From the NCBI GenBank assembly GCA_000505065.1, contig AWSN01000001.1, forward strand, positions 487,772-551,771: a stretch of DNA of 64,000 bases, in the 5' to 3' direction. This stretch comes from Parcubacteria bacterium RAAC4_OD1_1. GTDB taxonomy: Bacteria > Patescibacteriota > Minisyncoccia > Phycocordibacterales > UBA9973. Under the pieces are notes generated by a model. The model was not told where the DNA came from. It saw nothing but the letters and a program-made list of their open reading frames with translations, and ran no database searches. A program made the position numbers and the translations under genes. This document shows, piece after piece, positions 23,467 through 45,767 of the stretch. How positions within the stretch are numbered: the stretch's first letter is position 1; every line of letters starts with the position of its first letter.

Positions 23467-23883
23467 TCACAATATTATATTTTCTACTACTTTTACTCTA
23501 CCTAGTTTTTTATGTATATCAATATAAACAACCAAAAGGTCAAATTGCCATTCCCTATTCCCTACTCTATTACTTATGAGATAAGTTTCTACTATTCTTC
23601 GAAGTCTTTGCATTTTCCAAATATGCATATTTTCTTCTGGTCTACCTGTTTCAAACCCCCACTGTCCAGGCCTTGCCTGGACAGTGGGGGTAAATGAGAA
23701 TTGTTTTGATTTTACTTCAACAAAATATATCTTATTATCTTTTATTGCAATTATATCTATTTCTCCCCACTTTCTAGTGTAATTTCTTTCTAAAACAAAA
23801 AATCCGTGTTTCATAAGAAACCTACAGGCTAAATCTTCCCCAATTTTACCTATTTTTTGTGAATTTGAAGTAAAACTTTTCAT
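23467..23883 (-). CDS. yraN: YraN (UPF0102) family endonuclease carrying an in-frame P2 palindrome insertion
   Basis: GEIDIIA and VEVKSK motifs; the peptide PTVQARPGQWG is encoded by the 35-nt palindrome at 23656-23690. Confidence 0.7.
   Translation of the reverse strand: MKSFTSNSQKIGKIGEDLACRFLMKHGFFVLERNYTRKWGEIDIIAIKDNKIYFVEVKSKQFSFTPTVQARPGQWGFETGRPEENMHIWKMQRLRRIVETYLISNRVGNREWQFDLLVVYIDIHKKLGRVKVVENIIL
23656..23690. repeat. P2 palindrome copy (cccccactgtccaggccttgcctggacagtggggg), inside yraN
   Basis: A perfect 16-bp stem with a 3-nt loop. It is GC-rich within AT-rich DNA and open in all six frames. Confidence 0.9.
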
Positions 23884-24120
23884 AGTGTTTCACGTGAAAC
23901 ATTTTTAGGTGTTAATAACGGACAAATTCACCTAAAAATTGTACTTTACTAATAAAACCTTATTTATCAAGCTTTTTTATATTTTAGATATAAATATTTG
24001 AATTACAAAGTTTGTCTTTTATAAACAATACACACATACTTATCCACATAATCTATATTTTTAAAGGGTTTTTGGTGTGTATAAAAGACTAATAAAAGTC
24101 ATAATCTATAGTAGTAATTT

Positions 24121-24194
24121 TGTGCACCTGGAGGGATTCGAACCCCCAACGACGGTTCCGAAGACCGGTATGATATCCATTTCACTACAGGTGC
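24121..24194 (-). tRNA. tRNA-Arg (anticodon TCG); CCA not encoded
   Basis: Acceptor GCACCTG/CAGGTGC, anticodon loop CTTCGGA, T-arm GGGGGTTCGAATCCC. Confidence 0.75.
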
Positions 24195-24290
24195 ATATTT
24201 TATATTATACAATAAAATAATAATTTAACAAAACAAATTGCTTTTTGATTTAAAAAATATTATAATAAAAAAGTTATAAAAAATAATTTA

Positions 24291-24363
24291 GCGGTGTTGG
24301 TTTAGTGGTAGAACACGTCCTTGCCAAGGATGAGACAGGAGTTCGATTCTCCTACGCCGCACA
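24291..24363 (+). tRNA. tRNA-Gly (anticodon GCC); CCA not encoded
   Basis: Acceptor GCGGTGT/ACGCCGC, anticodon loop TTGCCAA, T-arm GGAGTTCGATTCTCC. Confidence 0.8.
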
Positions 24364-24368
24364 AATAT

Positions 24369-25922
24369 ATGGCTGATAAGCCAATTATAAACAACTCAAA
24401 AATCCCAAAATATGTTACACGTGTAACAGAAACCCTCGAAAAAGCTGGTTTTGAAGCTTTTCTTGTGGGTGGATGCGTCCGAGATCTTATTATAGGCAGG
24501 GAACCAAAAGATTGGGATATTACAACAAATGCCAAACCAAAAGAGATAATTCCATTATTTGAGAAAACTATATATGAAAATAAATTTGGAACAGTCGGTG
24601 TCTGTATTCCTAAAGAAATCCCCAAACCTAGTTTGGATATTTCATGCGAAACGGGAGACAAGGCTGAATATCATATAATTGAAGTAACTCCATACAGAAT
24701 AGAGTCTAAATATGATGATTTTAGGCATCCAAATGAAGTTAAATTTAGTAAAAAAATAGAAGATGACCTTAAAAGAAGAGACTTTACAGTAAATGCAATA
24801 GCGTATAGTATTTCTAAAGGACAACTTATTGACCTTTATAAAGGACAAGAAGATATAAAAGACAAAGTTATTAGGGCAGTGGGGGATCCAAAAGATAGAT
24901 TTACCGAAGATGCCCTTCGAATGCTTCGTGCTATTAGATTTTCAGCAGAATTAGACTTTTCTGTTTCATATGAAACAATAAACGCTATTTATGAGAATAA
25001 GAATCTTATAAAAAATGTATCTTTTGAAAGAATTCGTGATGAATTTACTAAAATAATAATGTCTTCAAACTCAGTTTCTGGAATAGCTTTATTGCAAAAG
25101 CTTGAATTACTTAAACATATAATTCCAGAATTAGAAGAGGGAATTGGATGTATCCAGGGTGGAGCTCATAAATACGATGTCTGGGAGCATTTACTCCAAG
25201 CCCTTGATCATGCTACAAAAAAGAATTGGTCTTTAGAAATAAGACTTTCTGCCTTGTTTCACGATATTGGAAAACCTAGATCTAGAAGAAAAGGGGTTAA
25301 AAAAGCCTATACTTTTTATGGCCATGAAGTAATAGGGGAAAGAATGGTGAAACAAATTATGGAAAGAATGAGATATTCTAAAGAAATAAGCGAAAAAGTT
25401 ATTAGTTTCACGAGAAACCATATGTTCTTCTCTGATACTGAAAAAATAACACTTTCTGCTGTAAGGAGGATTATTCAACATGTTGGTAAAGAAAATATCT
25501 GGGATCTTATGAAAGTCCGTGAGTGTGATAGGGTGGGAATGGCAAAAGCTGAAGCTCCATATAGACTTCGTAAATATCACGCAATGATAGAAGAAGCTCT
25601 CCGTGACCCAATATCCGTCAGCCAGCTAGCCATAGATGGAAACTATATGATGGGGGAGTTACACGTGAAACCAGGCCCCCGAATGGGCTGGATACTAAAT
25701 GCTCTCCTTGAAGAAGTCCTAGATGATCCAACCAAAAACAACAAAGAGCACCTATCAGAACTCGTGAAATCCCTTGATATGCTGGGCGATGCTGAATTAA
25801 AGACATTGGGAGAAAGAGGAAAAGAGAAGAAAGATAAACTAGAGAAAGAAGAAATCAAAAGGTTACATGTGAAACATGGGGTGAGCTCGGGTAAGGGACC
25901 TGAGCGCAAGACCGGAGCCTGA
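24369..25922 (+). CDS. cca: CCA-adding tRNA nucleotidyltransferase with HD domain
   Basis: The polymerase beta-type head GGCVRDLIIG...DWDITT is followed by an HD motif (LFHDIGKP). The ATG at 24369 is 6 nt after tRNA-Gly. Confidence 0.8.
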   Translation: MADKPIINNSKIPKYVTRVTETLEKAGFEAFLVGGCVRDLIIGREPKDWDITTNAKPKEIIPLFEKTIYENKFGTVGVCIPKEIPKPSLDISCETGDKAEYHIIEVTPYRIESKYDDFRHPNEVKFSKKIEDDLKRRDFTVNAIAYSISKGQLIDLYKGQEDIKDKVIRAVGDPKDRFTEDALRMLRAIRFSAELDFSVSYETINAIYENKNLIKNVSFERIRDEFTKIIMSSNSVSGIALLQKLELLKHIIPELEEGIGCIQGGAHKYDVWEHLLQALDHATKKNWSLEIRLSALFHDIGKPRSRRKGVKKAYTFYGHEVIGERMVKQIMERMRYSKEISEKVISFTRNHMFFSDTEKITLSAVRRIIQHVGKENIWDLMKVRECDRVGMAKAEAPYRLRKYHAMIEEALRDPISVSQLAIDGNYMMGELHVKPGPRMGWILNALLEEVLDDPTKNNKEHLSELVKSLDMLGDAELKTLGERGKEKKDKLEKEEIKRLHVKHGVSSGKGPERKTGA

Positions 25923-26326
25923 CGAGGCGAGGTGGGCTCGCGAGATTTTTCAACAGAAAAATACTTGTGAGTAGAAAATAGGGAAGAAACAAAACTCTTG
26001 AGACTCTCGAGGCAAGGCCTAAAGAGTTTAAGGTATTAAAAAATAAAAGAAGCGGGAACCAGAGGATCCCCGTTTCAAAACTTAACCTAACTAAACCAAA
26101 TTATGATTAAAGAAAAAATAAATTGTTCAAGTCAACACAAGAACAATTTAAAAAAGTGATTACTTATATTATGAACTTCTTATAAAATAAGTCAAGAACA
26201 GAAAACCCCGGAATAAAAATCTCCGGGGTGAAAACAATTAAACAATGTCAGAAAACAGAAAACTAGAAACAAAATAATTAAACTGTGCAATAAAGAACAG
26301 TTTAATCATTATAATTATACCTACTT

Positions 26327-27124
26327 TTATACTTTTATGTCAATCATTATCGGGCAATGGTCTGAGCCCATATAGTCAGAGAGGGTTTTAAAACTTTTTA
26401 CATTTTTAATAAAAGATTTATTGGTAAAAAAGTAATCTATCCTCCAACCGACATTCCTATCACGTGCTCTTGTTTTCTGATCCCAATAAGTATAGACATC
26501 TTTTTGGTCGGGATTTAAATATCGAAAAATATCTATCCAATTATTTTTTATTAATTTATCCATCCAAGCTCTCTCGATAGGGAGAAAGCCTGTGTTGTTT
26601 ACATTCTCTTTTGGCCGAGCGAGGTCTATTTCATTATGAGCAGTATTTACATCTCCAGTAAAAATTACATTATATCCATTCTTTTCTAGTTTATTTATAA
26701 ATTTTAAAAAAGCGTCATAAAATTCTAATTTATATTTTAATCTTTCTGGTTTTATGCCAGCATTAGGAAAATAACAATTGATTAAAGCTAATTTCTTACC
26801 TTTCCCACCAATGGGACTTTTATAATACAAAACTAAAGTCCTACCTTCATCATCAAATTTTTTAATTCCCAAACCATACTCAACTCTTTCTGGTTTTACT
26901 TTTGTATAAATAGCTACACCACTATAACCCTTTCGAAGTTTTGAATATGAAAAATAAGAATAATAACCCTTTAAATTCCTGGATGCTTCATCAAGTTGCT
27001 CTGGCTCACATTTTGTTTCTTGAAAACAAACCATATCTGGATTATTAAAAGCAAACAGGGGAGTAAAGTGTCCTTGTTTTATCGTCGCCCGCAATCCATT
27101 TGTATTCCAACTTATAATTTTCAT
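26327..27124 (-). CDS. xth: Exodeoxyribonuclease III (AP endonuclease)
   Basis: MKIISWNTNGLRA, FQETKCE and a C-terminal SDHCP motif fit the EEP fold. Confidence 0.85.
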   Translation of the reverse strand: MKIISWNTNGLRATIKQGHFTPLFAFNNPDMVCFQETKCEPEQLDEASRNLKGYYSYFSYSKLRKGYSGVAIYTKVKPERVEYGLGIKKFDDEGRTLVLYYKSPIGGKGKKLALINCYFPNAGIKPERLKYKLEFYDAFLKFINKLEKNGYNVIFTGDVNTAHNEIDLARPKENVNNTGFLPIERAWMDKLIKNNWIDIFRYLNPDQKDVYTYWDQKTRARDRNVGWRIDYFFTNKSFIKNVKSFKTLSDYMGSDHCPIMIDIKV

Positions 27125-27147
27125 ATTAATTATTATATAACTATCTA

Positions 27148-27996
27148 TTAACTATTCATTTCCTTAAATAATTCTTCTGATTCTTTTTCGGTTATGTCTA
27201 TTTTTTTAGAAATTTCCCATATAACCTTAAACTGAGAAGCCACCATATCAGCAAATTCTTTACTTTCAAGAATAAAACCAAAATTATCCTTTGGAGAAGA
27301 AATGCAGGCAACCTTATTTTCATAAATCCAATAACCCATAGAAAAATCTATTCCCTCTGGGGCAACTCTTATTTCCCTGAGAAAAACTTCGCCAGTCCCC
27401 ATAAATGGATAATCATTCATATCAATAATATGCTTTTCTGGCCAAATAACATTCATATAAATATTTCTTTTCACTCTTTCAATATTAAATTGTTTAAAAA
27501 ATTCTTCTCCAAAAACTTCAATAACAAGTTTAATTGGAATATAAGCTTTAGCTTCCATATTTCTGTAAAGAAGTATGTCTCTTAAAATATTCTGAACTTC
27601 TTTTTTGCTTTCAAATATCTGAAAACGGGGAACAGAGGTTGGTTTTAAACCTTTTTGAATTTCCAAAAATGCTTTTGTTATGACATCCTTAGTATCATTA
27701 ATATTTTTTATCTGTTCATCCAAGACCATATTTATCTTTTCTGCACTAGAAACTAAAAAAGTTTTTACTCCATCTTTTTGAGAATGAACAACTAAACCTT
27801 TTTCTTGAAGATTCTTTAGATAACCATAAAGAGATGGGCGAGAAAGGCCAGTCTTTATTGCAATTTTTCCAGCTGTTTGTTCACCGTTTTCTAGTAAAAA
27901 TAGGAAAGTTTTTATTTCGTCTTCTTTAATACCTATATTTATAAGTTTCTGGCTGAGCATATTTAATATTATATTCCTTAGCTTTTCTGTTGTCAA
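27148..27996 (-). CDS. TrmB-like HTH transcriptional regulator
   Basis: The N-terminal winged helix GEQTAGKIAIKTGLSRPSLYGYLKNLQEKGLV matches the TrmB family. Confidence 0.55.
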   Translation of the reverse strand: MTTEKLRNIILNMLSQKLINIGIKEDEIKTFLFLLENGEQTAGKIAIKTGLSRPSLYGYLKNLQEKGLVVHSQKDGVKTFLVSSAEKINMVLDEQIKNINDTKDVITKAFLEIQKGLKPTSVPRFQIFESKKEVQNILRDILLYRNMEAKAYIPIKLVIEVFGEEFFKQFNIERVKRNIYMNVIWPEKHIIDMNDYPFMGTGEVFLREIRVAPEGIDFSMGYWIYENKVACISSPKDNFGFILESKEFADMVASQFKVIWEISKKIDITEKESEELFKEMNS

Positions 27997-28072
27997 GATT
28001 GTACAACACCATTTACAATAGTTGACATAAATGCTATACTATGTTTAAGTTAAACTTTTAAAAAAATAAATC

Positions 28073-28444: not shown

Positions 28445-28571
28445 CCGAAGGTTAGAGGAATAAAAATGAAAAGCGGTCGCTATGCGATCGCTTTTTTTAA
28501 TTACTGTGAAATTTCTTGTGCACCCCAGTAGTAGAGCAAAGCTCACTACGGGGCAAGCATCTCTTATTTTA

Positions 28572-29570
28572 TCACGACTTACTATGATATTTCTTATGTA
28601 TATCTTTTAATTGACGATCTGTAATATGTGTATATATCTGAGTTGTAGCAATATTCGCATGGCCAAGCATCATTTGGACCGAGCGAATATCAGCCCCATT
28701 AGAAAGTAAATCTGTTGCAAAAGAGTGACGAATCACGTGGGGGGTCACCTTCTTAGAAATTCCTGCAATAATTGCATATTGGCGAACAATCCTTTCTATA
28801 GAGCGGGGGGTAATTCTTCCTCCGTTACTGTCCAGGCCTTGCCTGGACTTATTATTTTTGGAATACTGAATAAATAATGGCTCATCCATATCTTTTCTAT
28901 TTTTCAAATATTCTCTTATTGCATCCTTGGCGCTATCTGAAAGGAAAACGACACGAACTTTTTCACCCTTTCCACGGATAGAGAATTCATCTTTTGATAA
29001 ATCCAAGTCCCTATTGAGTGAGCAAAGTTCAGAAAGACGAAGCCCTGTCGAGAAAAAAAGCTCCAATATCGCTTTGTCTCGTAAAGATTTCAAATTCCCA
29101 TAGGTCGGACCTAGGGTCTTATTATTTTTACTTTTTGCCCCTAGGTCCGACCTAGGGGAATTTTCCAAAGGTGCTTTTAAAAGCCTATTTAATTCATCAA
29201 CAGAAATAAGATCCAAAGACCTTTCTTTTATCTTTGCAAGCTCTATCCGATCAGGTGGAAGGGAAGTGATACCTCTTTTCATAAGATATTTAAGGAAAGA
29301 ACGAAGAGCAATAAGATGATAATTCTGAGTATTCTTCTTAAGAGTTGCTGATTGTTGCCCACGAACCTTAACCCCAGGCTGACGATTAAGAAAAAGACGG
29401 AATTCACGAATCTTGTCATCATCAATATCTTTTGGATCTGTTATTTTGGAAAAATCAAAAAACCTACTTATATAATGATCATAATTATTGACCGTTTTTA
29501 GACTATTTCCTTTCTCTATTTCTACATGCTCAAGAAATTCTCTTTTCAATTGCTCTAAATAAGATGCCAT
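28572..29570 (-). CDS. xerC: Tyrosine recombinase XerC/XerD-like, carrying two in-frame palindrome insertions
   Basis: HVIRHSFAT...LGHANIATTQIYTH in the catalytic region. P2 encodes SRQGLDSNGG, and a P3 pair encodes PRSDLGAKSKNNKTLGPTYG. Confidence 0.8.
   Translation of the reverse strand: MASYLEQLKREFLEHVEIEKGNSLKTVNNYDHYISRFFDFSKITDPKDIDDDKIREFRLFLNRQPGVKVRGQQSATLKKNTQNYHLIALRSFLKYLMKRGITSLPPDRIELAKIKERSLDLISVDELNRLLKAPLENSPRSDLGAKSKNNKTLGPTYGNLKSLRDKAILELFFSTGLRLSELCSLNRDLDLSKDEFSIRGKGEKVRVVFLSDSAKDAIREYLKNRKDMDEPLFIQYSKNNKSRQGLDSNGGRITPRSIERIVRQYAIIAGISKKVTPHVIRHSFATDLLSNGADIRSVQMMLGHANIATTQIYTHITDRQLKDIHKKYHSKS
28826..28849. repeat. P2 palindrome copy inside xerC
   Basis: The sequence is actgtccaggccttgcctggact. 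Confidence 0.85.
29098..29157. repeat. Pair of P3 palindromes (cctaggtcSgacctagg) separated by 19 nt, in frame inside xerC
   Basis: ccataggtcggacctaggg ... cccctaggtccgacctagggg. The core gacctaggtc recurs in the rpsO terminator at 30071-30100. Confidence 0.8.
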
Positions 29571-29799: not shown

Positions 29800-29808
29800 A
29801 TAAGGGTC

Positions 29809-30777: not shown

Positions 30778-30926
30778 AAAAATAGATAGACAGCAGAAAT
30801 TCCCTCTTCCAAAAAGAGGGAATTTCTGCTATGCTTTTGGTATTAAGAGTTAACGAGCTAGTATTCAGACAATTAGAGTTGAAACTGCAAAAAGTTTCAA
30901 AACTAGAGTCTGGAGACTAACTCACA

Positions 30927-30960
30927 CCCCACTGTCCAGGCCTTGCCTGGACAGTGGGGG
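30927..30960. repeat. P2 palindrome copy, 5' UTR of pnp (12 nt before ATG)
   Basis: The sequence is ccccactgtccaggccttgcctggacagtggggg. Confidence 0.9.
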
Positions 30961-30971
30961 AAAAATAATTT

Positions 30972-33101
30972 ATGCAAAGTAAAGAATACGAAGTAGAAGT
31001 AGGTGGCAAGAAAATTGTCGCGATGTTTTCTGATTTAGCAGACCAAGCAAATGGATCTGTGATTTTAAAAAGTGAGGGGACGGTAGTCATGGCGACAGCT
31101 GTCATTTCTAAAGACGAAAGTAAGAGTCTTGGATTCTTTAATCTCACAGTAGAGTACTTGGAAAAATTTTATGCGACAGGTCGCATTTTAGGTGGGCAAT
31201 ATAACAAGAGAGAAGGTCGTCCAAGCGACCAAGCAATCCTTGCTGCAAGAATGATCGATAGAACCATTCGTCCACTTTTTGATCAGCATATAAAAAATGC
31301 TGTTCAGATCATCATCACAGTAATTGCAGTTGGGGAAATGGATCCAAAAGTTTTGGGTATCAACGGAGCATCACTGGCAATCTCTATGTCAGACATACCA
31401 TGGAATGGACCAGTTGGAGCAGTTCATATAAGTAGGACTAGCGGAGACAATAATATAAAAGTAAACAATTATGTTCCATCTTCTGATGAACCAGTTTATG
31501 AGCTTGATTTACTTGTTTGCGGTAAAGATAAAACTATCAATATGATAGAGGCGATGTCTTTTGAATTTTCTGAAGAAGAAATAGGAAAATGTTTTGATAT
31601 GGCATCTGTTGAAATTTCTAAATGGGAAGATTTCCAGAAAAAATTAATGAGTGAATTTGGTAAATCAAAATTAGTTTTTCCTAAACCACAAGTTGAAAAA
31701 GAAGATATCGAACTTTTCAATGAAAAAATAAAACCAATACTCGATGAAAAACTTCTTACAAAAGATAGTAAAAAGGTGGGGGCAAATGCTGAAAAAATAT
31801 GGGATGAGATTTTGGAAGAAAAATATGGTGAAAATGAAGAAAACATAACAAAGAAAAATGCAGCTCTTGATTACTTGCACAATCAATTAGATAAAATGTT
31901 TCACGAAGCTGCCCTTAAAGAAAATAAACGAGCTGATGGAAGAAAAATTGATGAAATTAGAAAATTATATGCAAAAGCTGGTGGAATTTCCAATGTGTTA
32001 CACGGTTCTGGAATATTTTACCGTGGCGAAACTCATGTACTTTCAGTTCTTGCTTTGGGTGGACCTGAAGATATGCAGACCATAGAAGGAATGGAATTTG
32101 AATCAAAAAAGCGTTTCATGCATCACTATAACTTCCCTCCATACTCAGGTGGAGAGACAGGACGCGTCGGCGGAATAAACAGAAGAGAGATGGGCCATGG
32201 CTTCCTCGCAGAGAAAGCTCTCACACCTGTAATACCAGAGAAAATAAATTTCCCTTATACAATTCGTGTTGTGTCAGAATCTACAGCATCAAATGGTTCT
32301 ACATCTCAAGCTTCTATCTGTGCAGCAACACTTGCTCTTATGGATGGAGGAGTGCCCATTAAAACTCCTGTTGCGGGAATTTCTATCGGATTGATGTCTA
32401 GTGAAACAGATGAAAATAAATATGTATTACTTTCTGACATACAAGGTCCAGAAGATCACTATGGTGATATGGATTTTAAAATTGCAGGAACCAAAGACGG
32501 AATCACTGCTATACAACTCGATGTAAAAGTAGGAGGTATAAAAATAAATATTTTAAAAGAAGCACTAATCCGTGCTAAAAATGCGAGACTAGAAATACTC
32601 GATGTAATCACCAAAGAAATTTCTTCTCCAAGACCAAACATCTCAGACAGAGCACCAAAGATACTTACAACTAAAATAAAAAAAGATCAGATCGGTATGG
32701 TTATTGGTCCAGGTGGTAAAAACATAAATGCAATTAGAGAAAAAACTGGAGTAGAAATAACAATAGAAGAAGATGGCACAGTAATAGTCACAGGTAAAAA
32801 TGGAGGAGCTGAAGAAGCTATAAAAATAATCGAAAATATGACTCATGAATACAAAGTGGGTGACACAGCCGAAGGGGTAGTAGTAAAAATTATGGAGTTT
32901 GGAGCTTTTGTAAAAATAGGATATGACACCGAAGCACTTGTGCACATATCTGAGCTTGCACCATTCCGTGTTGCCAAAGTTTCTGATATTATTAAGGAGG
33001 GAGACAGTGTCCCAGTGAAAGTCATCAAACTAGATGAAAAAGGAAGATTGAGTCTTTCTATAAAAGAAGCAGATCCAACATTCTTCAAAAAAGAAAATTA
33101 A
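30972..33101 (+). CDS. pnp: Polynucleotide phosphorylase
   Basis: 709 aa with two RNase PH-like domains followed by KH and S1 domains. A P2 palindrome lies in its 5' UTR. Confidence 0.9.
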   Translation: MQSKEYEVEVGGKKIVAMFSDLADQANGSVILKSEGTVVMATAVISKDESKSLGFFNLTVEYLEKFYATGRILGGQYNKREGRPSDQAILAARMIDRTIRPLFDQHIKNAVQIIITVIAVGEMDPKVLGINGASLAISMSDIPWNGPVGAVHISRTSGDNNIKVNNYVPSSDEPVYELDLLVCGKDKTINMIEAMSFEFSEEEIGKCFDMASVEISKWEDFQKKLMSEFGKSKLVFPKPQVEKEDIELFNEKIKPILDEKLLTKDSKKVGANAEKIWDEILEEKYGENEENITKKNAALDYLHNQLDKMFHEAALKENKRADGRKIDEIRKLYAKAGGISNVLHGSGIFYRGETHVLSVLALGGPEDMQTIEGMEFESKKRFMHHYNFPPYSGGETGRVGGINRREMGHGFLAEKALTPVIPEKINFPYTIRVVSESTASNGSTSQASICAATLALMDGGVPIKTPVAGISIGLMSSETDENKYVLLSDIQGPEDHYGDMDFKIAGTKDGITAIQLDVKVGGIKINILKEALIRAKNARLEILDVITKEISSPRPNISDRAPKILTTKIKKDQIGMVIGPGGKNINAIREKTGVEITIEEDGTVIVTGKNGGAEEAIKIIENMTHEYKVGDTAEGVVVKIMEFGAFVKIGYDTEALVHISELAPFRVAKVSDIIKEGDSVPVKVIKLDEKGRLSLSIKEADPTFFKKEN

Positions 33102-41600: not shown

Positions 41601-41681
41601 AAAGGATATAATTATGAATTTGCACAGAAGCTACCAGATGGTAATGTAAAAATATTACATATTAAATTATTTAAAGAATAA
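38628..41681 (+). CDS. Giant hypothetical protein: K/E-rich coiled coils flanking a glycine-rich multi-TM core
   Basis: 1017 aa. A duplicated peptide LSHTGAAPA(S/F)YEDKIE is followed by TM helices between about residues 430 and 600. Confidence 0.5.
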   Translation: MEKINEPKSAKLETEDKDLKRFKEKLSKIRIDESFIKERKSQLLTKGYGDEESRIISSKEAMIKADNDRIELLKEYPDFKDGEKRINEILIKRDTNQKEINELLKKDKKEEEENKNIKSNRQLLREAEDKLRNMSVDMGIIKKEKSDLLGEGYPFEFSEKLSSLNGEIRLLQNKIQILIENPKIENGIKLRKNLEEKLSKLEKERNILLTSKPEPIKNETTKNEVVEKNEKPVVDEYDEAEIDKEIKNFVPKKEEQTSKKINWGKLNPFSWFKKDKKENDNSSTEGELLDKKRMILSHTGAAPASYEDKIENEEKKEENINEILDKKINAEKNKVLLSHTGAAPAFYEDKIEVGEKKEVKNEKKKTLYTKEQQKEFFDGLKEKLKNGEISEIDFKDAILKRTEEIHNFEKGSVYKAMDKWDNWGKNGGVGKYAKMAINIAMIAGVSSLTVNGMAGLTERVVSRTLIGTAAGTGLGGLMTWLDKLPPEKKSKVQKIIKGILIGGSAIFTIGTGGIVPGLAIGASTAFGYGISRYYKNWNERAMRSENIENLKEIPIDLENLDKNTTLMEFKMKKMLKSADRTKVLAKIASAGMAMALSIGTLEVSGLVHDHLNDTSSTENVDDNTNKEKIEDSKNNEVAQEAEDEKTNGAEKNDDTKVNNEKENNNTQTEDNKKIEDNKKSYVGEKEIGAVANKGQGAISTIKELKESLEKTYENVPEKDIPENVKHIIDTDAHDLAKEYGMYRPGEEAESAKVFSGDKIIFDQETGEVKFHQEKTGEDVVLEKGKEFGGDMFDSGKFKAPVENLETEIKGDETSQFEKDYPQTSPENEEFEMGTKTENSNIIIDGEEIKAPEISEKELLENKKLAESYGVDSERYRGETDSEYLNRMKEEIAEEKESLKQELASSEKMSLDKTLKMVHGEKLEIEKLKDLKEITRGYEGATNQSSLKDIMEKIKEQGLKAIITKDIGENPTDAQVSINEKMRLVEKSLSGQKGYNYEFAQKLPDGNVKILHIKLFKE

Positions 41682-41733
41682 AAATTATTAATTAACTATT
41701 TGCTAAAGTGAAAAGCTAAAGCAAAAAAAATAT

Positions 41734-42042
41734 ATGGCAATAATGAAAAAAGATTTAATAGATATGTTTGAGTTAGACAAACTCCCAGGAGATAAAACAG
41801 AAGAAATGGTGGAACGACTTGGTAGGCTCATTTTCCAAGCAACACTTGTAAGATCAATACCACTTTTAAGTGAAGAAAACCAAAAAGAATATGAAAAATT
41901 AATTGATTCTGAAAAAGGTGGGGATGAAATGTTTAAATTCTTGCAAGAAAAAGTTCCGGGATTTGAAAATATACTAAAAGAAGAATCGGAAGCTTTAAGA
42001 CTTCAAATGTCAGAAGGTTTTAGTGAGTCTGGTTTAGAATAA
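41734..42042 (+). CDS. Hypothetical protein
   Basis: 102 aa and acidic. Confidence 0.4.
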   Translation: MAIMKKDLIDMFELDKLPGDKTEEMVERLGRLIFQATLVRSIPLLSEENQKEYEKLIDSEKGGDEMFKFLQEKVPGFENILKEESEALRLQMSEGFSESGLE

Positions 42043-42053
42043 AAAATATAAAA

Positions 42054-42088
42054 CAAAAACTCCCTCTTTAAAAGAGGGAGTTTTTGTT
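42054..42088 (+). terminator. Terminator before uvrD
   Basis: The sequence is aaaaactccctctttaaaagagggagtttttgttt. Confidence 0.65.
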
Positions 42089-42109
42089 TAAAAATGGTAA
42101 AATGATTTA

Positions 42110-44071
42110 ATGGATTATTTAGATTCCCTAAACGAAAAACAAAAAGAGGCGGTCCTTTATACAAATGGGCCTCTTTTAATTGTAGCAGGAGCCGGAGCAG
42201 GTAAAACAAAGACGATAACTCACAGAATCATTCATCTTATACACAAAGGGATAGATCCAGAAACTATTCTTGCTATTACTTTTACAAATAAGGCTGCCAA
42301 AGAAATGAAAGAAAGGGTAATGAATATGCTTGAAAAAAAAGAGCACGGGGATATTGTGGGGGATAATTTGGCACGCCCCGGATTTCGTCGGGGCGTGCCT
42401 TTCATTTCTACTTTTCACTCACTTGGAGTCTATATAATAAAAGAGAATGCTCACCTGATAGGCCTTACAAAACATTTCTCAATTATAGATGAAAGTGATG
42501 CTCTTTCTATTATAAAAAACATAATGAAAGAACGTGATATTGACCCAAAACAGCACGAGCCAAGAAAAATAAAAGGAATTATCTCTAGATCAAAAGGAGA
42601 TTTTATAGATGTAGAAGAATTTTCTAAAAATGTTGGTAACGCTATCCAAAGTATAGTAGCAATAATTTGGCGTGATTATGAGAGAGAACTAAAAAAGCAA
42701 AAAGCTTTAGACTTTGATGATCTCCTTATAGAATCTGTAAAAATTTTAAAAAACAACAAAAACATAAAAGAAAAATATCAAAACAAGTGGCGGTATCTTC
42801 ATATTGATGAATACCAAGACACAAACGAAGTTCAATACGAAATGGTTAAACTTTTAGTTGATAAAGAGAACAATCTTTGTGTAGTGGGGGACACAGATCA
42901 AAACATTTATTCTTGGCGTGGAGCAAATATAAAGAACATGCTTCATTTTGAGAAAGATTTTCCAGATGCAAAAATTGTTATGCTTGAGCAGAATTATCGC
43001 TCAACGAAAAACATAATAGAAGCCGCAAATAATGTTATTAAAAAAAATGAATACCGAGTTCCTAAAAATTTATTTACAGAAAACAAAGAAGGTGAATCTA
43101 TAAGCATCTGCGAAACATATGATGAGCTTACAGAAGCAAATCATATAGCTGAAACAATAGATATATTACTTAGAGAAGAAGAAGCCGAAAATATTGCAGT
43201 ACTTTATCGTGCAAACTTCCAATCAAGAGTTTTAGAAGAAGCAATGCTCGCAAAGCAAATTCCTTACCAGGTTTTAGGGGTAAAATTTTTTGAAAGAAAA
43301 GAAATAAAAGATTTGCTTTCATATATAAAAGCAAGTTTAAATAAAGAAAGTTTGATTGATATAAAAAGGATTATAAATGTCCCAACTCGCGGTATAGGCA
43401 AAACAACAATCACTAAACTTTTCGCAAATCAATTTACAGAAATTCCAAAAGCTACCCAAGAAAAAATAAATAATTTTTACAATCTCTTAGATAATATAAA
43501 TGAATTTATATCTACTCATAAAGTATCAGAATCCATCAAATATATAATAGAAAAAACAGGACTCGAAGAAAAATATAAACACGGATCCACAGATGAACAA
43601 GAAGATCTTGAAAATATGAAAGAGCTTGTATCTCTCGCCCTAAAATATGATGAATTAGAAGATGGAATTGAAAAGCTTCTAGAAGACGCATCACTTTCAA
43701 GCGATCAAGACACCCTAATATATGAGGAGGACAAGAAAGGGAACAAAAAGGGTGTAAGACTTATGACCGTCCATGCTTCAAAAGGACTGGAATTTAAGTA
43801 TGTCTTCATAACTGGCCTCGAACAAGATCTTTTTCCTCATATAAAAGATGGTAAAAAATCTAAAGAAGACAACGAAGAAGAAAGAAGACTTTTTTATGTT
43901 GCTATTACAAGAGCAAAACATAAGCTTTATTTATCTTATGCGACCCTTCGAACTATCTTTGGAATGAAACAAGTAAATTCTCCAAGTGAATTTATATATG
44001 ATATCCCCGAACATTTAACATCTTTTGAACAAAAATATTCCCAATCTGGCAATAGAGTAGTATATCTATAA
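42110..44071 (+). CDS. UvrD/PcrA-family ATP-dependent DNA helicase with in-frame GC-rich palindrome
   Basis: Walker A GAGAGKT, TFTNKAAKEM, and DEYQDTN motifs. The palindrome at 42370-42399 encodes ARPGFRRGVP, just before TFHSLG. Confidence 0.85.
   Translation: MDYLDSLNEKQKEAVLYTNGPLLIVAGAGAGKTKTITHRIIHLIHKGIDPETILAITFTNKAAKEMKERVMNMLEKKEHGDIVGDNLARPGFRRGVPFISTFHSLGVYIIKENAHLIGLTKHFSIIDESDALSIIKNIMKERDIDPKQHEPRKIKGIISRSKGDFIDVEEFSKNVGNAIQSIVAIIWRDYERELKKQKALDFDDLLIESVKILKNNKNIKEKYQNKWRYLHIDEYQDTNEVQYEMVKLLVDKENNLCVVGDTDQNIYSWRGANIKNMLHFEKDFPDAKIVMLEQNYRSTKNIIEAANNVIKKNEYRVPKNLFTENKEGESISICETYDELTEANHIAETIDILLREEEAENIAVLYRANFQSRVLEEAMLAKQIPYQVLGVKFFERKEIKDLLSYIKASLNKESLIDIKRIINVPTRGIGKTTITKLFANQFTEIPKATQEKINNFYNLLDNINEFISTHKVSESIKYIIEKTGLEEKYKHGSTDEQEDLENMKELVSLALKYDELEDGIEKLLEDASLSSDQDTLIYEEDKKGNKKGVRLMTVHASKGLEFKYVFITGLEQDLFPHIKDGKKSKEDNEEERRLFYVAITRAKHKLYLSYATLRTIFGMKQVNSPSEFIYDIPEHLTSFEQKYSQSGNRVVYL
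42370..42399. repeat. P4 GC-rich hairpin (ggcacgccccg-gatttcgtc-ggggcgtgcc) in frame inside uvrD
   Basis: A 10-bp perfect stem, the only such GC-rich patch in the gene. Confidence 0.7.
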
Positions 44072-44088
44072 ATTTTTTCACAAAACCT

Positions 44089-44859
44089 ACTGTCCAGGCC
44101 TTGCCTGGACAATATTTAATATATATAATAGATAATATGTCTATTAGACCTATCAAATTCGCACCAAATGAAAATTACCACATATACAATCGTGGTGTAA
44201 ATAAAATGAATATTTTTATAGATCATAATGATTATGATCGTTTTATGAAATTAATGTATGTATCAAATTCTACTACCAATAAAAAATTTACCGACATAGA
44301 AACAAGTCCAGGCAAGGCCTGGACACTAGAAAAAGATAGTGATTTGGTAGATATTGTTAGTTATTGTCTTATGCCTAATCATTTTCATTTTATTCTTAGA
44401 GAAAAAATTGAAAATGGCATAAGTATATTTATGCACAGACTCTCTACTTCTTACTCTATGTATTTTAATAAAAAATACGATCGTAATGGAGCACTTTTCC
44501 AAGGAAAATTTAAGTCAGAACATATAAATAATGACAATTATTTTAAATATCTATTTTCATATATTCACTTAAATCCAATAAAACTTATACAAAAAGACTG
44601 GAAAGAAATTGGAATAAAAAATATTGATGTAGCACAAAAATATCTTTTAAAATATCCCTATTCTAGTTTTTTGGATATAATAGAAAAAATTAACAGAATA
44701 GAGTCAAAAATAATAAATAAACTAAGTATTCCTAATTATTTTGGTTCTCCTGAAAATTTTAAAAAGGAAATTTTTGATTGGTTGATAGTTAAAATATGAA
44801 TATTAATAAAAATAAATTTAATAGTGTTAGGAATACTGTCCAGGCAAGGCCTGGACAGT
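44089..44859 (+). mobile_element. RAYT paralog 2 unit bounded by P2 palindromes
   Basis: P2 copies lie at 44089-44111, 44306-44324 (internal, encoding SPGKAWT) and 44835-44859. Confidence 0.55.
44136..44799 (+). CDS. IS200-like HuH tyrosine transposase, REP-associated (RAYT-like), paralog 2 (ORF track starts at TTG 44101)
   Basis: YHIYNRGV near the N-terminus, HuH in CLMPNHFHFIL, then YIHLNPIK and YPYSSF. P2 copies lie upstream, internally and downstream. Confidence 0.7.
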
Positions 44860-45767
44860 GGAAATATAAAGCCAAAAAGCATCTGGGGCAAAACTTTTTA
44901 AAATCTAAAGAAGCAATTAAAACTATATGTGATGCTGGAAAAGTAGAAAAAGAAGATATTATCTTGGAAATTGGCCCCGGGAAAGGGGTTCTCACTGAGG
45001 AGTTGCTAAAAAGAGGGGCAAAAATTCTAGCAATTGAAAAAGACAATGATTTAATTAATTTTTTAATAGAAAAATTTGAATCTTTTCTTCCGTCCACACC
45101 GGGTATGGACATAGATACAAAAAGGTTAAATATAATAAATGAAGATATTTTGGATTTTGATATTTCAAAATATGGACTTTTAGATAAAAAATACAAAATA
45201 ATTGCAAATATTCCATATAATATAACAGGGGCAATAATAAAGAAATTCTTAAGTGAGATCAAAAATAAGCCTATTTTAATGGCTATTTTGGTGCAAAAAG
45301 AGGTTGCGGAAAGAATTGTTGCAAAAAACAGAAAAATAAATAAGCAAAAAACAGAAGCTGTCCAGGCCTTGCCTGGACAGTCCAGGCCTTGCCTGGACAG
45401 TGGGGGGAAGGAGAGTATATTGTCATTGAGTGTGAAAGCTTATGGAGATCCTAAATATATAATGAAAGTATCAAAAAAATATTTCTCACCAGCCCCAAAA
45501 GTGGACTCCGCGATAATACTTATAGATAATATTTCCGATAAAAATTTTAAAAACAATGATGAGGAAAAAACCTTTTTTGATCTAGTTCATGCTGGATTTA
45601 GTCATAAAAGAAAATTATTTATAAAAAACATAGAAAATTTAGATTACCAAAAAGAAAAAATTAAAAAAATGTTTGAAATATTAGAAATTGATAAAAAAAT
45701 AAGAGCAGAAGATATACCTTTTTATAAATGGATAGAAATGAAAGATTTTTTAACTACAAAAAACTAG
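44796..45767 (+). CDS. rsmA: 16S rRNA (adenine1518/1519-N6)-dimethyltransferase RsmA/KsgA carrying three in-frame P2 palindromes
   Basis: LGQNFL and EIGPGKGVLT motifs. The start ATG overlaps the RAYT stop (ATGA). One P2 copy sits in the N-terminal extension (TVQARPGQW), and a tandem pair sits mid-gene (AVQALPGQSRPCLDSGG). Confidence 0.8.
   Translation: MNINKNKFNSVRNTVQARPGQWKYKAKKHLGQNFLKSKEAIKTICDAGKVEKEDIILEIGPGKGVLTEELLKRGAKILAIEKDNDLINFLIEKFESFLPSTPGMDIDTKRLNIINEDILDFDISKYGLLDKKYKIIANIPYNITGAIIKKFLSEIKNKPILMAILVQKEVAERIVAKNRKINKQKTEAVQALPGQSRPCLDSGGKESILSLSVKAYGDPKYIMKVSKKYFSPAPKVDSAIILIDNISDKNFKNNDEEKTFFDLVHAGFSHKRKLFIKNIENLDYQKEKIKKMFEILEIDKKIRAEDIPFYKWIEMKDFLTTKN
45358..45407. repeat. 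Tandem double P2 palindrome inside rsmA
   Basis: ctgtccaggccttgcctggacag is followed immediately by tccaggccttgcctggacagtgggggg. Confidence 0.9.

What the first reader, a model, noticed from the sequence alone, without database searches (positions are those of the whole stretch)
23656..45407. GC-rich palindromic element family (P2) inserted in frame inside housekeeping genes, like Rickettsia palindromic elements
The 35-nt perfect palindrome cccccactgtccaggccttgcctggacagtggggg and its shorter variants occur at least 8 times in 22 kb. The copies are at 23656, 28826, 30927, 44089, 44306, 44835, 45358 and 45381. Six copies lie inside open reading frames without breaking them. yraN gains PTVQARPGQWG, xerC gains SRQGLDSNGG, rsmA gains TVQARPGQW and then AVQALPGQSRPCLDSGG, and RAYT paralog 2 gains SPGKAWT. 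Two more copies sit in the pnp 5' UTR and just upstream of RAYT paralog 2. I translated the element in all six frames and found no stop codon in either orientation. That explains how it persists inside essential genes. The element is about 65% GC in a roughly 30% GC genome. The only known parallel I can name is the in-frame RPE elements of Rickettsia. Together with the associated RAYT genes, this looks like a REP/RAYT system that has colonised coding sequence.
Basis: partly seen in the sequence, partly recalled or inferred. Interest (0 to 1): 0.85.

Follow-up and report, generated by a model that had tools for sequence, protein, structure and literature searches.

The report
Hairpin repeats inside Nomurabacteria housekeeping genes
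A 17-35-base GC-rich hairpin repeat, partnered with its own RAYT-type transposase gene, sits in frame inside several housekeeping genes of a tiny groundwater (CPR) bacterium; it is a known kind of element (REP/RAYT) behaving in an unusually gene-invasive way in a lineage where it had not been described.

Summary
The P2 palindrome (core TCCAGGC-CTT/AAG-GCCTGGA, up to 35 nt) occurs 8 times between 23.6 and 45.4 kb, against 0 expected by chance. Six copies lie in intact ORFs: yraN, xerC, a RAYT-like gene and rsmA (three copies).

The window is from a Candidatus Nomurabacteria (CPR) genome. P2 is the cognate hairpin of RAYT2, a single-copy HUH/Y1 transposase whose model best matches E. coli TnpA-REP (4ER8). 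The unit uvrD-[P2]-RAYT2-[P2]-rsmA is conserved in two related species.

Three close relatives differ:
- One has no RAYT at this locus and no palindromes in rsmA.
- One has a different RAYT, with its own palindrome (P5) at the same rsmA sites.
- The window has P2 plus a decayed P5 relic.

Filled and empty sites show recent gains (pnp 5'UTR, rsmA loop), an old conserved copy (xerC) and a deletion footprint (yraN). In the RsmA model the inserts fall in the only low-confidence stretches.

The kind is known: intragenic REPs were described in 2013. New here are the phylum, the lack of a GTAG/CGTC tag, the mostly in-gene location, recurrent hits at one rsmA codon junction, and a cognate hairpin inside most RAYT reading frames. 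Mobilisation by the RAYT and translation of the inserts are inferred.

The parts
23655..23691 (.). P2 full-length copy (17-bp stem, loop CTT on + strand) inside yraN (23467-23883, -). It encodes PTVQARPGQWG in a hypervariable loop.
   Evidence: The orthologous copy in L020 has a flipped loop and the L035 copy is partly decayed. The closest relative, L032, lacks it but keeps a TGGGGG footprint.
28826..28850 (.). P2 short copy inside xerC/xerD (28572-29570, -). It encodes SRQGLDS in a loop of variable length before the conserved LTPRS segment.
   Evidence: It is present at the same codons in L020 and L035. Third codon positions match at 8/8 and 7/8, against 55% gene-wide.
30927..30961 (.). P2 copy in the pnp 5'UTR, 11 nt before the ATG at 30972. 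This is a recent insertion.
   Evidence: The site is empty in L020 and L035 while the flanking leader sequence is conserved.
44088..44114 (.). P2 copy forming the 5' flank of the RAYT2 unit, between the uvrD stop (44071) and the RAYT2 start (44137).
   Evidence: Equivalent flank copies exist in L023 and L027.
44137..44799 (+). RAYT2, a 220-aa HUH/Y1 transposase. The HUH motif is NHFH at residue 81 and the tyrosine motif is SYIHLNP. It is the presumed mobilising enzyme for P2.
   Evidence: Pfam Y1_Tnp scores 36.4 bits against a cut-off of 23. NCBIfam REP_Tyr_transpos scores 44 bits, below its cut-off of 80. The AF2 model has pLDDT 90.8, and its best PDB match is 4ER8, E 3.3e-6. Syntenic orthologues have 78% and 66% identity by search.
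44306..44324 (.). P2 core copy inside the RAYT2 reading frame (SPGKAWT), in the loop 16-24 codons before the HUH motif.
   Evidence: The DNA is identical in L023. In L027 the DNA has decayed but the peptide is kept.
44835..44859 (.). P2 copy (loop AAG) forming the 3' flank of the RAYT2 unit. It lies inside the rsmA N-terminal extension (TVQARPGQW).
   Evidence: It is present in L023 and L027 in the same frame and absent in L030 and L031. There is no alternative start codon between it and the conserved KKxLGQNFL motif (sequence read).
45330..45404 (+). A 75-nt in-frame insertion in the rsmA interdomain loop. It is a 27-nt A-rich stretch followed by two head-to-tail P2 units with a 20-nt period (45358-45407). 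It encodes RKINKQKTEAVQALPGQSRPCLDSG.
   Evidence: The site is empty in L030, L023 and L027. L031 has P5 and L038 has P6 at the same junction. pLDDT is below 50 for residues 181-202.
45088..45110 (.). Decayed relic of another palindrome family (P5) in rsmA (FLPSTPGMDID).
   Evidence: The window reads TTCCGTCCACACCGGGTATGGAC. L031 has the intact TTCCGTCCAAACCGGGTTTGGACGGAA at the same codons.
44796..45767 (+). rsmA (ksgA), 323 aa against about 265 aa for insert-free homologues. It carries four palindrome-derived segments.
11753..12511 (-). Second, independent unit: RAYT1 (11766-12446, -) with its own palindrome P1. P1 lies at the 5' flank (12465-12511), inside the CDS at the same loop (12240-12268) and over the stop codon (11753-11781).
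   Evidence: The orthologue L044b (70% identity) has its own variant at all three positions.
29097..29158 (.). P3 palindromes (CCCCTAGGTCCGACCTAGGGG plus a degenerate copy) inside xerC, in the interdomain loop.
   Evidence: They are partly decayed in L020 and unrecognisable in L035.
42370..42399 (.). P4, a GC-rich palindrome (GGCACGCCCCGGATTTCGTCGGGGCGTGCC) inside uvrD, in a loop that differs among three species.
   Evidence: It is single-copy in the window and its family status is unproven.

Best explanation
P2 is a REP-type single-hairpin repeat. It is the cognate substrate of RAYT2, a single-copy, largely vertically inherited HUH/Y1 (RAYT-like) transposase encoded between uvrD and rsmA in a Candidatus Nomurabacteria genome.

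Proposed mechanism, by analogy with TnpA-REP and IS200/IS605 enzymes. The enzyme recognises the hairpin as single-stranded DNA at replication forks. It cuts and rejoins at the hairpin foot, which spreads the hairpin or re-homogenises existing copies, preferentially near its own gene. About 89% of this genome is coding and the spacers are tiny, so most landing sites are in genes. The survivors are copies that are in frame, free of stops (easy for GC-rich DNA) and located in disordered surface loops or N-terminal extensions. There they are translated as short, neutral peptide loops. When the cognate RAYT is replaced or lost, copies decay or are deleted.

Shown here: the repeat itself, its in-frame positions, filled versus empty orthologous sites, linkage of palindrome family to RAYT type, and the RAYT fold.

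Inferred: catalysis by RAYT2, the single-stranded DNA mechanism, translation of the inserts, and their neutrality.
For: 1. There are 8 copies against 0 expected by chance, and they recur in independent assemblies.

2. The hairpin-RAYT-hairpin layout at uvrD-rsmA is conserved in L023 and L027, where UvrD is 77% and 74% identical. In L023 both flank copies share a paired substitution, TGTCCAGG/CCTGGACA to TGCCCAGG/CCTGGGCA.

3. Three close relatives (UvrD 93-95% identical) form a natural experiment. L030 has no RAYT and no palindrome in rsmA. L031 has a different RAYT (55% identity) flanked by P5, with P5 at two rsmA sites. The window has RAYT2/P2, with P2 in rsmA and a decayed P5 relic.

4. Clean empty sites exist for the pnp 5'UTR (L020, L035) and the rsmA loop (L030, L023, L027). 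A TGGGGG deletion footprint remains in yraN of L032.

5. All three reading frames of P2 are used, and copies also sit in non-coding DNA, so no particular peptide is being selected.

6. The RAYT2 model (pLDDT 90.8) best matches 4ER8, TnpA-REP bound to a REP hairpin, followed by the ISDra2 and IS608 transposases. It has HUH and Tyr motifs, and Pfam Y1_Tnp is above its cut-off.

7. In the RsmA model the only segments with pLDDT below 50 are residues 1-26 and 181-202. These contain the P2 segments. The rest of the fold is above 90. The KsgA structure alignment places the insert between the two domains.

8. A second unit, RAYT1/P1, has the same layout in the same genome.
Against: 1. No transposition or cleavage has been observed, so mobilisation by RAYT2 is inferred from linkage only.

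2. P2 lacks the 5' GTAG/GTGG or CGTC tag of classical REPs (sequence read; definitions). RAYT2 is below the NCBIfam RAYT cut-off, 44 bits against 80. Neither a sequence nor a profile search against PDB found 4ER8.

3. The xerC copy is conserved at synonymous sites across three species. The RAYT-internal copy is also conserved. This could mean selection on the DNA or RNA hairpin rather than neutrality.

4. Independent hits by P2, P5 and P6 at exactly the same rsmA codon junction need either target specificity or overwriting of an existing hairpin. The simple model of random landing plus selection does not predict this.

5. Only 84 kb of an approximately 0.69-Mb genome was seen. Genome-wide copy number and the fraction in CDS are unknown.

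6. A formal covariation test on 17 copies was not significant.
Confidence: 0.7

Rival explanations
1. The hairpins are host-beneficial cis-elements kept by selection at particular sites rather than selfish mobile DNA. Possible roles are mRNA stabilisers or processing sites, translation-pausing signals, terminators of antisense transcription, or protein-binding sites. The RAYT would only maintain them.
For: - The xerC copy is identical at 8/8 and 7/8 third codon positions, against 55% gene-wide, across three species.
- Paired substitutions keep the stem in L023 and in the L035 yraN copy, and one U-G wobble is compatible with the sense RNA.
- The stems are very stable, -19 to -35 kcal/mol.
- Three in-gene copies (xerC, RAYT2 internal, rsmA loop) score as hairpin plus T-tract terminators on the antisense strand. 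The 5' flank copy scores on both strands.
- The RAYT-internal copy tracks the flank sequence in several lineages.
Against: - Presence or absence differs among very close relatives, with no sign that the genes need the hairpin (L030 rsmA, L032 yraN, L020 and L035 pnp leader).
- Different, unrelated palindromes occupy the same site in different species.
- Copies decay once the cognate RAYT is gone, as with the P5 relic.
- Orientation relative to transcription is mixed.
- Covariation is not significant overall.
Confidence: 0.15
2. The palindromes spread and are homogenised without any transposase. Candidate routes are hairpin-promoted template switching, slipped-strand repair or gene conversion between copies. 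The RAYT genes would be bystanders that happen to have collected copies.
For: - Hairpin loops flip between orthologous copies (CTT and AAG in yraN and the rsmA N-terminus). This is typical of intramolecular template switching.
- The rsmA copy is a 20-nt tandem duplication.
- The yraN copy in L032 was lost leaving only a short footprint.
- No target-site duplication or conserved target motif was seen.
Against: - The palindrome family follows the RAYT type in close relatives: P2 with RAYT2, P5 with the L031 RAYT, P6 with the L038 RAYT, P1 and P1' with the RAYT1 clade, and none where there is no RAYT.
- Template switching cannot by itself place an identical 35-mer at unlinked loci.
Confidence: 0.1
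3. RAYT2 with its flanking hairpins is an ordinary autonomous IS200/IS605-type insertion sequence, and the scattered P2 copies are solo ends left by its movements.
For: - It has the Y1_Tnp domain.
- It has hairpins at both ends.
- Its fold is also similar to the ISDra2 and IS608 transposases.
- The RAYT at the locus differs between close relatives: it is absent in L030 and replaced in L031.
Against: - RAYT2 is single-copy in 84 kb. The only paralogue is 34-36% identical and has a different hairpin.
- The gene sits at the same syntenic position in species with 74-77% UvrD identity. This is the pattern of domesticated RAYTs rather than of an active IS.
- The two ends are the same palindrome rather than distinct left and right ends.
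- No tnpB was seen among the called genes next to it.
- The best structural match is TnpA-REP.
Confidence: 0.04
4. The P2-encoded peptides are themselves a selected protein module, for example a PGQW-type motif, and the DNA palindrome is incidental.
For: The peptide IPGKAWT is kept in the L027 RAYT although its palindrome has decayed. The RAYT2 model is confident (pLDDT about 90) across that segment.
Against: - The same DNA is read in three different frames, giving unrelated peptides (VQA[R/L]PGQW, SR[Q/P][G/C]LDS, SPGKAWT), and it also occurs in two non-coding sites.
- The segments are low-confidence, probably disordered, in RsmA.
Confidence: 0.01

Closest known systems
REP/RAYT systems (REPtrons): E. 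coli TnpA-REP with REP/BIME, and Pseudomonas REPIN-RAYT
   Same: - A short GC-rich hairpin repeat family linked to one Y1/HUH transposase gene that is flanked by the same hairpins.
- The transposase is single-copy and held at a syntenic locus across species.
- Several RAYT and repeat pairs can exist in one genome.
- The RAYT2 fold is closest to 4ER8 (PMC3733652 and PMC8266576 read).
   Different: - P2 has no 5' GTAG/GTGG or CGTC tag.
- The elements are single, near-perfect palindromes rather than REPIN doublets, apart from one head-to-tail dimer.
- Six of 8 copies are inside ORFs rather than extragenic.
- A cognate copy lies inside the RAYT reading frame.
- RAYT2 does not reach the NCBIfam RAYT cut-off.
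- The host is a CPR bacterium with a genome of about 0.7 Mb and 32% GC.
Intragenic REPs of Opitutus terrae, Thauera, Xanthomonas and others (Di Nocera et al. 2013, PMC3733652)
   Same: REP units of 20-40 nt are inserted in frame in genes, often as dimers that encode 20-30 residues. The hosts are often DNA replication, repair or RNA-related genes, including uvrD. Some sit at N-termini, and in Xanthomonas recB different REPs lie at the same site.
   Different: In those genomes the intragenic copies are a minority of a mostly extragenic family and carry GTAG or CGTC tags. Here the in-gene copies are the majority of those seen. The genome is AT-rich and highly reduced. The link between RAYT type and the palindrome family found in the neighbouring gene can be followed among close relatives.
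Rickettsia palindromic elements (RPE-1 and relatives)
   Same: Palindromic repeats are inserted in frame in housekeeping genes of a reduced genome. They are tolerated in surface-exposed segments and are found in both coding and non-coding DNA (and my own knowledge of Ogata et al. 2000-2002).
   Different: RPE-1 elements are about 100-150 bp and have no known dedicated transposase. P2 is 17-35 nt and is physically linked to a RAYT-like gene. There is no sequence relationship, and the phylum is different.
IS200/IS605 family insertion sequences (IS608, ISDra2)
   Same: They have a Y1 HUH transposase that recognises subterminal DNA hairpins on single-stranded DNA and makes no target duplication. 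The RAYT2 model aligns to these enzymes.
   Different: Those are autonomous, multi-copy elements with distinct left and right ends, often carrying tnpB. RAYT2 is single-copy, syntenic, and bounded by one palindrome type.
Mobile GC clusters and double-hairpin elements of AT-rich fungal mitochondrial genomes (analogy only, from my own knowledge)
   Same: GC-rich palindromes spread in a very AT-rich, compact genome and occasionally sit in frame in protein genes, for example in yeast var1.
   Different: These are organellar elements with no associated HUH transposase, so the mechanism is unrelated. I did not test this comparison here.

Membership tests
REP/RAYT (REPtron) system | Encodes a Y1/HUH tyrosine transposase of the RAYT (TnpA-REP) type. 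| tested here: inconclusive
   - Pfam Y1_Tnp scores 36.4 bits, above its cut-off of 23.
- HUH (NHFH) and YIHLNP motifs are present.
- The best fold match is 4ER8 TnpA-REP, E 3.3e-6, TM 0.68 normalised on the target.
- The NCBIfam equivalog REP_Tyr_transpos scores 44.2 bits, below its cut-off of 80.
- Sequence and profile searches against PDB find nothing.
REP/RAYT (REPtron) system | The transposase gene is flanked by copies of the repeat family found elsewhere in the genome. | tested here: met
   P2 lies at 44088-44114 and 44835-44859 around RAYT2, and P1 lies around RAYT1. The same holds in L023, L027, L031, L038 and L044.
REP/RAYT (REPtron) system | The RAYT is single-copy and vertically inherited at a syntenic locus. 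| tested here: inconclusive
   There is one RAYT2 and one RAYT1 (34-36% identical) in the 84 kb seen. RAYT2 orthologues occupy the same uvrD-rsmA locus in L023 and L027. However, the gene is absent in L030 and replaced in L031. The whole genome was not available.
REP/RAYT (REPtron) system | The repeat carries a conserved 5' tetranucleotide (GTAG/GTGG, or CGTC) at the foot of the hairpin. | tested here: not met
   The aligned copies show CCCCCACTG...CAGTGGGGG symmetric ends. There is no GTAG, CGTC or 5' GTGG. The definitions come from PMC3733652 and PMC6006769.
REP/RAYT (REPtron) system | The repeats are predominantly extragenic and high in copy number. | tested here: not met
   Six of 8 copies are in ORFs. 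Coding DNA is about 89% of the window, so placement is close to random with respect to genes. Only 8 copies were found in 84 kb, and the genome-wide number is unknown.
REP/RAYT (REPtron) system | The RAYT binds and cleaves its REP as single-stranded DNA. | not testable with these tools
   This needs biochemistry with RAYT2 and P2 oligonucleotides.
Rickettsia palindromic elements (RPE) | A palindromic repeat inserted in frame in protein genes, in tolerated surface segments. | tested here: met
   In the RsmA model, pLDDT is below 50 only in the two stretches that contain the P2 segments.
Rickettsia palindromic elements (RPE) | Element length of about 100-150 bp (RPE-1), rickettsial sequence families, and no linked transposase. 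| tested here: not met
   P2 is 17-35 nt and is linked to RAYT2. The host is Nomurabacteria.
IS200/IS605 autonomous insertion sequence | Multiple near-identical copies, each bounded by distinct left-end and right-end hairpins. | tested here: not met
   RAYT2 is single-copy, both its ends carry the same palindrome, and it is syntenic across species.
MITE | Terminal inverted repeats of a parent IS, target-site duplications, and a length of 70-300 bp. | tested here: not met
   P2 is a single 17-35-nt hairpin. No duplication is visible when the filled pnp and rsmA sites are compared with the empty ones.
Rfam RNA families | A match to any curated structured RNA. | tested here: not met
   Only 4 tRNAs pass the gathering thresholds in the window.

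The most novel reading that the evidence does not exclude
Nomurabacterial RAYT units are three-hairpin modules: a 5' flank copy, a 3' flank copy and a copy inside the RAYT reading frame at a fixed loop before the HUH motif. The three copies, and copies at fixed hot-spot codons in neighbouring essential genes such as the VA[RK][ND]|GKESIL junction of rsmA, are repeatedly overwritten by whichever hairpin the resident RAYT currently recognises.

This would mean the RAYT performs site-directed replacement or homing at pre-existing hairpin sites, and probably regulates itself through the internal hairpin. It would not be simple random transposition. It would also make the peptide sequence of housekeeping proteins a read-out of transposase specificity across a large part of the CPR.
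Probability: 0.3. Interest if true: 0.75.

Novelty: new variant of a known kind. Interest (0 to 1): 0.6.

Why it matters
How REPs spread is still unresolved. As I recall the literature, transposition by TnpA-REP has never been shown in vivo. Here close relatives differ in three ways: whether a RAYT is present, which RAYT it is, and which hairpin occupies identical codon positions in an adjacent essential gene. That gives a natural series of filled, empty, replaced and decaying sites, from which the rules of insertion, replacement and loss could be read directly.

The system also shows that in ultra-compact CPR genomes selfish hairpins can persist mainly inside proteins. In RsmA this accounts for much of the roughly 58 extra residues, about 18% of the protein. 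This matters for annotation, for alignment-based phylogenomics of CPR marker proteins, and for structure prediction.

The cognate hairpin inside the transposase reading frame suggests a possible self-regulatory or self-targeting feature. The REP/RAYT papers I could search do not describe one.

Tried and rejected
- Genome collection. Scanning the species-representative genomes for the P2 core gave only 5 chance palindromes in high-GC genomes.
- Metagenome collection. The scan gave 13 loci, of which only L018 (the window itself) and L020 were real.
- Viral contigs. There were 0 hits, so nothing points to a phage origin.
- Rfam. Nothing matched except tRNAs.
- PDB by sequence. Neither RAYT2 nor a 23-sequence RAYT profile found anything. 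Only the fold search linked RAYT2 to 4ER8.
- Covariation. The test on 17 P2 copies was no better than shuffles. The core never varies and the outer stem is simply truncated in many copies, so the two paired substitutions I cite are anecdotes rather than statistics.
- Six-frame openness as an adaptation. Rejected, because 28-45% of matched shuffles are also stop-free.
- Target motif or target duplication. I looked at the P2 flanks and found none that convinces.
- Orientation bias. The loop is CTT on the + strand at 6 sites and AAG at 2, and orientation is mixed relative to host-gene sense. There are too few copies to interpret.
- Intrinsic terminators. Only some copies have T-tracts, and for the in-gene copies these are on the antisense strand.
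- xerC. Only distant homologues (55% identity or less) were available beyond the three P2-bearing species, so no empty site could be shown for the xerC copy.
- Strain comparison. The four assemblies of the source organism showed no presence/absence polymorphism for P2.

Full report

Yes. The 23-nt core with up to 3 mismatches, and the 17-nt pattern TCCAGGCNNNGCCTGGA, both find the same 8 sites, centred at 23673, 28839, 30943, 44101, 44315, 44847, 45369 and 45389. Dinucleotide-preserving shuffles gave 0.00-0.01 expected matches. The window is 32.5% GC and the element is 66-70% GC.

Six copies lie in intact ORFs:
- YraN/UPF0102, 23467-23883 (-)
- a XerC/D recombinase, 28572-29570 (-)
- a Y1_Tnp protein, 44137-44799 (+)
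- RsmA/KsgA, 44796-45767 (+), which holds three copies

The quoted peptides are correct. The 35-mer is open in all six frames. So are 28% of composition-matched shuffles and 45% of palindromic shuffles, so this openness follows from GC-richness and is not an adaptation.

The sequence is identical in independent assemblies from Rifle sediment and groundwater metagenomes and in an NCBI MAG. It is therefore not an assembly artefact. Source names place the organism in Candidatus Nomurabacteria, within CPR/Patescibacteria. The 10 kb beyond each end of the window adds no further P2 copy.

**2. What is around it?**

P2 flanks the Y1 gene, which I call RAYT2, on both sides. One copy lies at 44088-44114, between the uvrD stop and the RAYT2 start. 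The other lies at 44835-44859, 36 nt past the RAYT2 stop and inside the N-terminal extension of rsmA. The rsmA ATG overlaps the RAYT2 stop. A third copy sits inside the RAYT2 reading frame at 44306-44324.

RAYT2 has the HUH motif (NHFH) and a YIHLNP tyrosine motif. It passes Pfam Y1_Tnp but not the NCBIfam RAYT equivalog, scoring 44 bits against a cut-off of 80. An AlphaFold model built on 23 homologues has pLDDT 90.8. Its best match among solved structures is 4ER8, the E. coli REP-associated tyrosine transposase bound to a REP hairpin (E 3.3e-6), ahead of the ISDra2 and IS608 transposases.

A second paralogue, RAYT1 (11766-12446, -; 34-36% identical by alignment), has its own palindrome, P1 (CCCAGATAGTGGTTTAACCACTATCTGGG). 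P1 occupies the three equivalent positions: the 5' flank at 12465-12511, an internal site at 12240-12268, and a site over the stop codon at 11753-11781.

**3. Related genomes**

(a) Conserved unit. L023 and L027 have UvrD 77% and 74% identical to the window. Both carry RAYT2 orthologues (78% and 66% identical by search) at the same uvrD-rsmA locus, again flanked by P2. In L023 both flank copies share a paired change, TGTCCAGG...CCTGGACA to TGCCCAGG...CCTGGGCA, while the internal copy keeps the original sequence.

(b) Three very close relatives (UvrD 93-95% identical) differ at this locus:
- In L030, uvrD abuts rsmA directly. There is no RAYT, and rsmA has no palindrome at any of the three sites.
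- L031 has a different RAYT (55% identical to RAYT2) flanked by another palindrome, P5 (TCCGTCCAAACC[C/G]GGTTTGGACGGA). P5 copies lie inside rsmA at two sites.
- The window has RAYT2 with P2. Its rsmA carries P2 at the N-terminus, a P2 dimer in the interdomain loop, and a decayed P5 relic (45088-45110) exactly where L031 has an intact P5.

(c) A more distant genome. L038 repeats the pattern with a third palindrome, P6 (ATCCTCACACC[C/G]GGTGTGGGAAT). P6 lies at the RAYT 5' flank, inside the RAYT, at the rsmA N-terminus and at the same rsmA loop junction.

**4. Are the in-gene copies insertions?**

The rsmA loop copy is a clean 75-nt, lineage-specific insertion at 45330-45404. L030, L023 and L027 read VA[RK][ND]|GKESIL without it. 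Alignment to the B. subtilis KsgA structure puts it between the two domains.

The pnp 5'UTR copy is absent from L020 and L035, although the surrounding leader is conserved. It is therefore a recent gain.

The xerC copy is present at the same codons in the window, L020 and L035. Its third codon positions are identical at 8/8 and 7/8, against 55% for the gene as a whole. More distant XerC homologues have a loop of variable length at that position, so I could not show an empty site.

The yraN copy lies in a loop that is hypervariable in all Nomurabacteria. L020 has it with a flipped hairpin loop and L035 has it partly decayed. The closest relative, L032 (82% nucleotide identity), lacks it but keeps TGGGGG at the spot, which looks like a deletion footprint.

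The RAYT2 internal copy is old. SPGKAWT, or a near variant, is conserved in the RAYT2 clade down to about 56% identity.

In the AlphaFold model of RsmA, pLDDT is below 50 only for residues 1-26 and 181-202. These are the two stretches that contain the P2-encoded residues. The rest of the fold is above 90.

P2 is read in all three frames in different hosts and also occurs in non-coding DNA, so no particular peptide is being selected.

**5. Mechanism**

The best-supported reading is a REP/RAYT system. In this reading, a domesticated HUH/Y1 enzyme recognises its cognate hairpin on single-stranded DNA and spreads or renews copies. In a genome that is about 89% coding, the copies that persist are those that fall in frame in disordered loops.

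What is shown: the linkage of palindrome family to RAYT type, the filled, empty, replaced and decaying sites, the RAYT fold, and the loop positions.

What is inferred: catalysis by the RAYT, the single-stranded DNA route, translation of the inserts, and their neutrality.

Three observations go beyond a simple model of random landing followed by selection.

First, the same rsmA codon junction has been hit by P2, P5 and P6. In total, 15 of the 114 RsmA homologues that could be parsed carry an insert there, with GC-rich-codon peptides such as QALPGH, HTGCGNF and SKPGLD.

Second, 5 of the 8 RAYT genes examined, plus one relic, carry their own flank hairpin inside the reading frame at the same loop. 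That internal copy tracks the flanks between orthologues. For example, RAYT1 of the window carries P1, while L044b (70% identical) carries P1' at all three positions. L044a lacks an internal copy, so the feature is common but not universal.

Third, all 8 P2 copies lie within about 21 kb of RAYT2, out of the 84 kb examined.

Together these suggest action in cis, plus either target specificity or overwriting of existing hairpins.

**6. Rivals**

A host-selected regulatory hairpin is supported by the synonymous-site conservation in xerC, by two paired substitutions, by the stable stems (-19 to -35 kcal/mol) and by the terminator-like score of several copies on the antisense strand. It is undercut by the presence/absence differences among close relatives, by unrelated palindromes occupying the same site, by the decay of the P5 relic, and by a non-significant covariation test.

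Spread without a transposase, through template switching or gene conversion, would explain the loop flips and the 20-nt tandem dimer. It does not explain why the palindrome family follows the RAYT type.

An ordinary IS200/IS605 element is unlikely. RAYT2 is single-copy and syntenic, and both its ends carry the same palindrome.

**7. Comparison with what is known**

The closest match is the REP/RAYT (REPtron) class. In-frame intragenic REPs have already been described in Opitutus terrae, Thauera, Xanthomonas and Rickettsia conorii (RPE-4 and RPE-6), including in uvrD and other repair genes (PMC3733652).

The differences are:
- P2 has no GTAG/GTGG or CGTC tag.
- The elements are single, near-perfect hairpins.
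- Most of the copies seen are in genes.
- A copy sits inside the RAYT reading frame.
- RAYT2 scores below the RAYT equivalog cut-off.
- The host is a CPR bacterium.

RPE-1 elements are much longer and have no linked transposase.

Full-text searches found no paper that links RAYT or REP elements to CPR, Patescibacteria or Nomurabacteria. The REP/RAYT papers I could search do not mention a REP inside a RAYT reading frame. The library is incomplete, so this is absence of evidence only.

**8. Verdict**

I rate it a new variant of a known kind. Interest is moderate to high. The system offers an unusually clear natural series for working out how REPs spread and are replaced. It also shows a hidden source of insertions in CPR marker proteins.

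Noticed in passing
window 11753-12511 (RAYT1 unit); L040 18992-19026: A second RAYT paralogue carries its own palindrome, P1, at the 5' flank, inside the CDS and over the stop codon. One more full-length P1 (TCCCCCAGATAGTGGTTAAACCACTATCTGGGGGA) lies in an intergenic spacer about 8.6 kb beyond the left end of the window. P1 and P2 share the outermost stem CCCCCA...TGGGGG.
   Followed up: partly
RAYT genes in the window, L023, L027, L031, L038 and L044: In 5 of 8 RAYT genes, plus one decayed relic, the cognate flank hairpin also lies inside the RAYT reading frame, in the loop 16-24 codons before the HUH motif. It changes together with the flanks between orthologues. L044a lacks it.
   Followed up: partly
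window 45330-45404 and the same junction in L031, L038 and other RsmA homologues: The rsmA junction VA[RK][ND]|GKESIL is a recurrent insertion hot spot. Fifteen of 114 parsed homologues carry inserts there, with peptides typical of GC-rich palindromes (QALPGH, HTGCGNF, SKPGLD, HVGHGH and others).
   Followed up: partly
window 29097-29158 (in xerC) and 42370-42399 (in uvrD): Further GC-rich palindromes lie inside genes: P3 (two copies in the xerC interdomain loop, decaying in relatives) and P4 (in a variable uvrD loop). No cognate RAYT for either was seen in the 84 kb examined.
   Followed up: partly
window 23673 against L020 1816; window 44847 against L023 10707 and L027 10716: The 3-nt hairpin loop is flipped (CTT and AAG) between orthologous copies at the same site, changing one residue (R to L or the reverse). 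This could be a small loop inversion or a re-insertion in the opposite orientation.
   Followed up: no
window 28830-28848, 44306-44324, 45358-45380, 44088-44114: Several P2 copies score as a hairpin plus T-tract terminator. For the three in-gene copies this is on the strand antisense to the host gene. The 27-nt A-rich stretch inserted with the rsmA dimer supplies the T-tract on the antisense strand.
   Followed up: no
window about 30860-30925; L020 about 8600-8670; L035 (reverse strand) about 2950-3020: A conserved leader sequence upstream of pnp (GACAATTAGAGTTGAAG...TTTCAAAACTAGAGTCTGGAG) is shared by three species. It may be a pnp regulatory structure. The P2 insertion sits between it and the start codon.
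   Followed up: no
window 50480-50714 (in ORF 49606-51696); L007: A strain-level difference. The NCBI MAG lacks 69 nt (window 50480-50548) within a region of 90-nt segments repeated 144 nt apart, about 96% identical. In the NCBI record the large ORF is called as two genes (297 and 337 aa).
   Followed up: no
XerC homologues P0361, P0372, P0378, P0392 and others: Several XerC representatives are 650-760 aa long, and the match is split into two stretches. This suggests a large insertion, perhaps an intein or an extra domain, in the recombinase of other lineages.
   Followed up: no
L042 7783-9957 (just beyond the right end of the window): The genes dnaA, dnaN, rpmH, rnpA, yidD and yidC lie immediately right of the window, so the replication origin is probably within a few kb of position 64000. 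The window also holds a type IV secretion or conjugation-like gene set (PrgI, TraC-like, TraG P-loop) at about 55.5-58.5 kb.
   Followed up: no
window 30792-30830: A 17-20-bp AT-rich perfect hairpin with T-tracts on both strands lies after the NYN-domain gene. It looks like a bidirectional terminator and is unrelated to P2.
   Followed up: no
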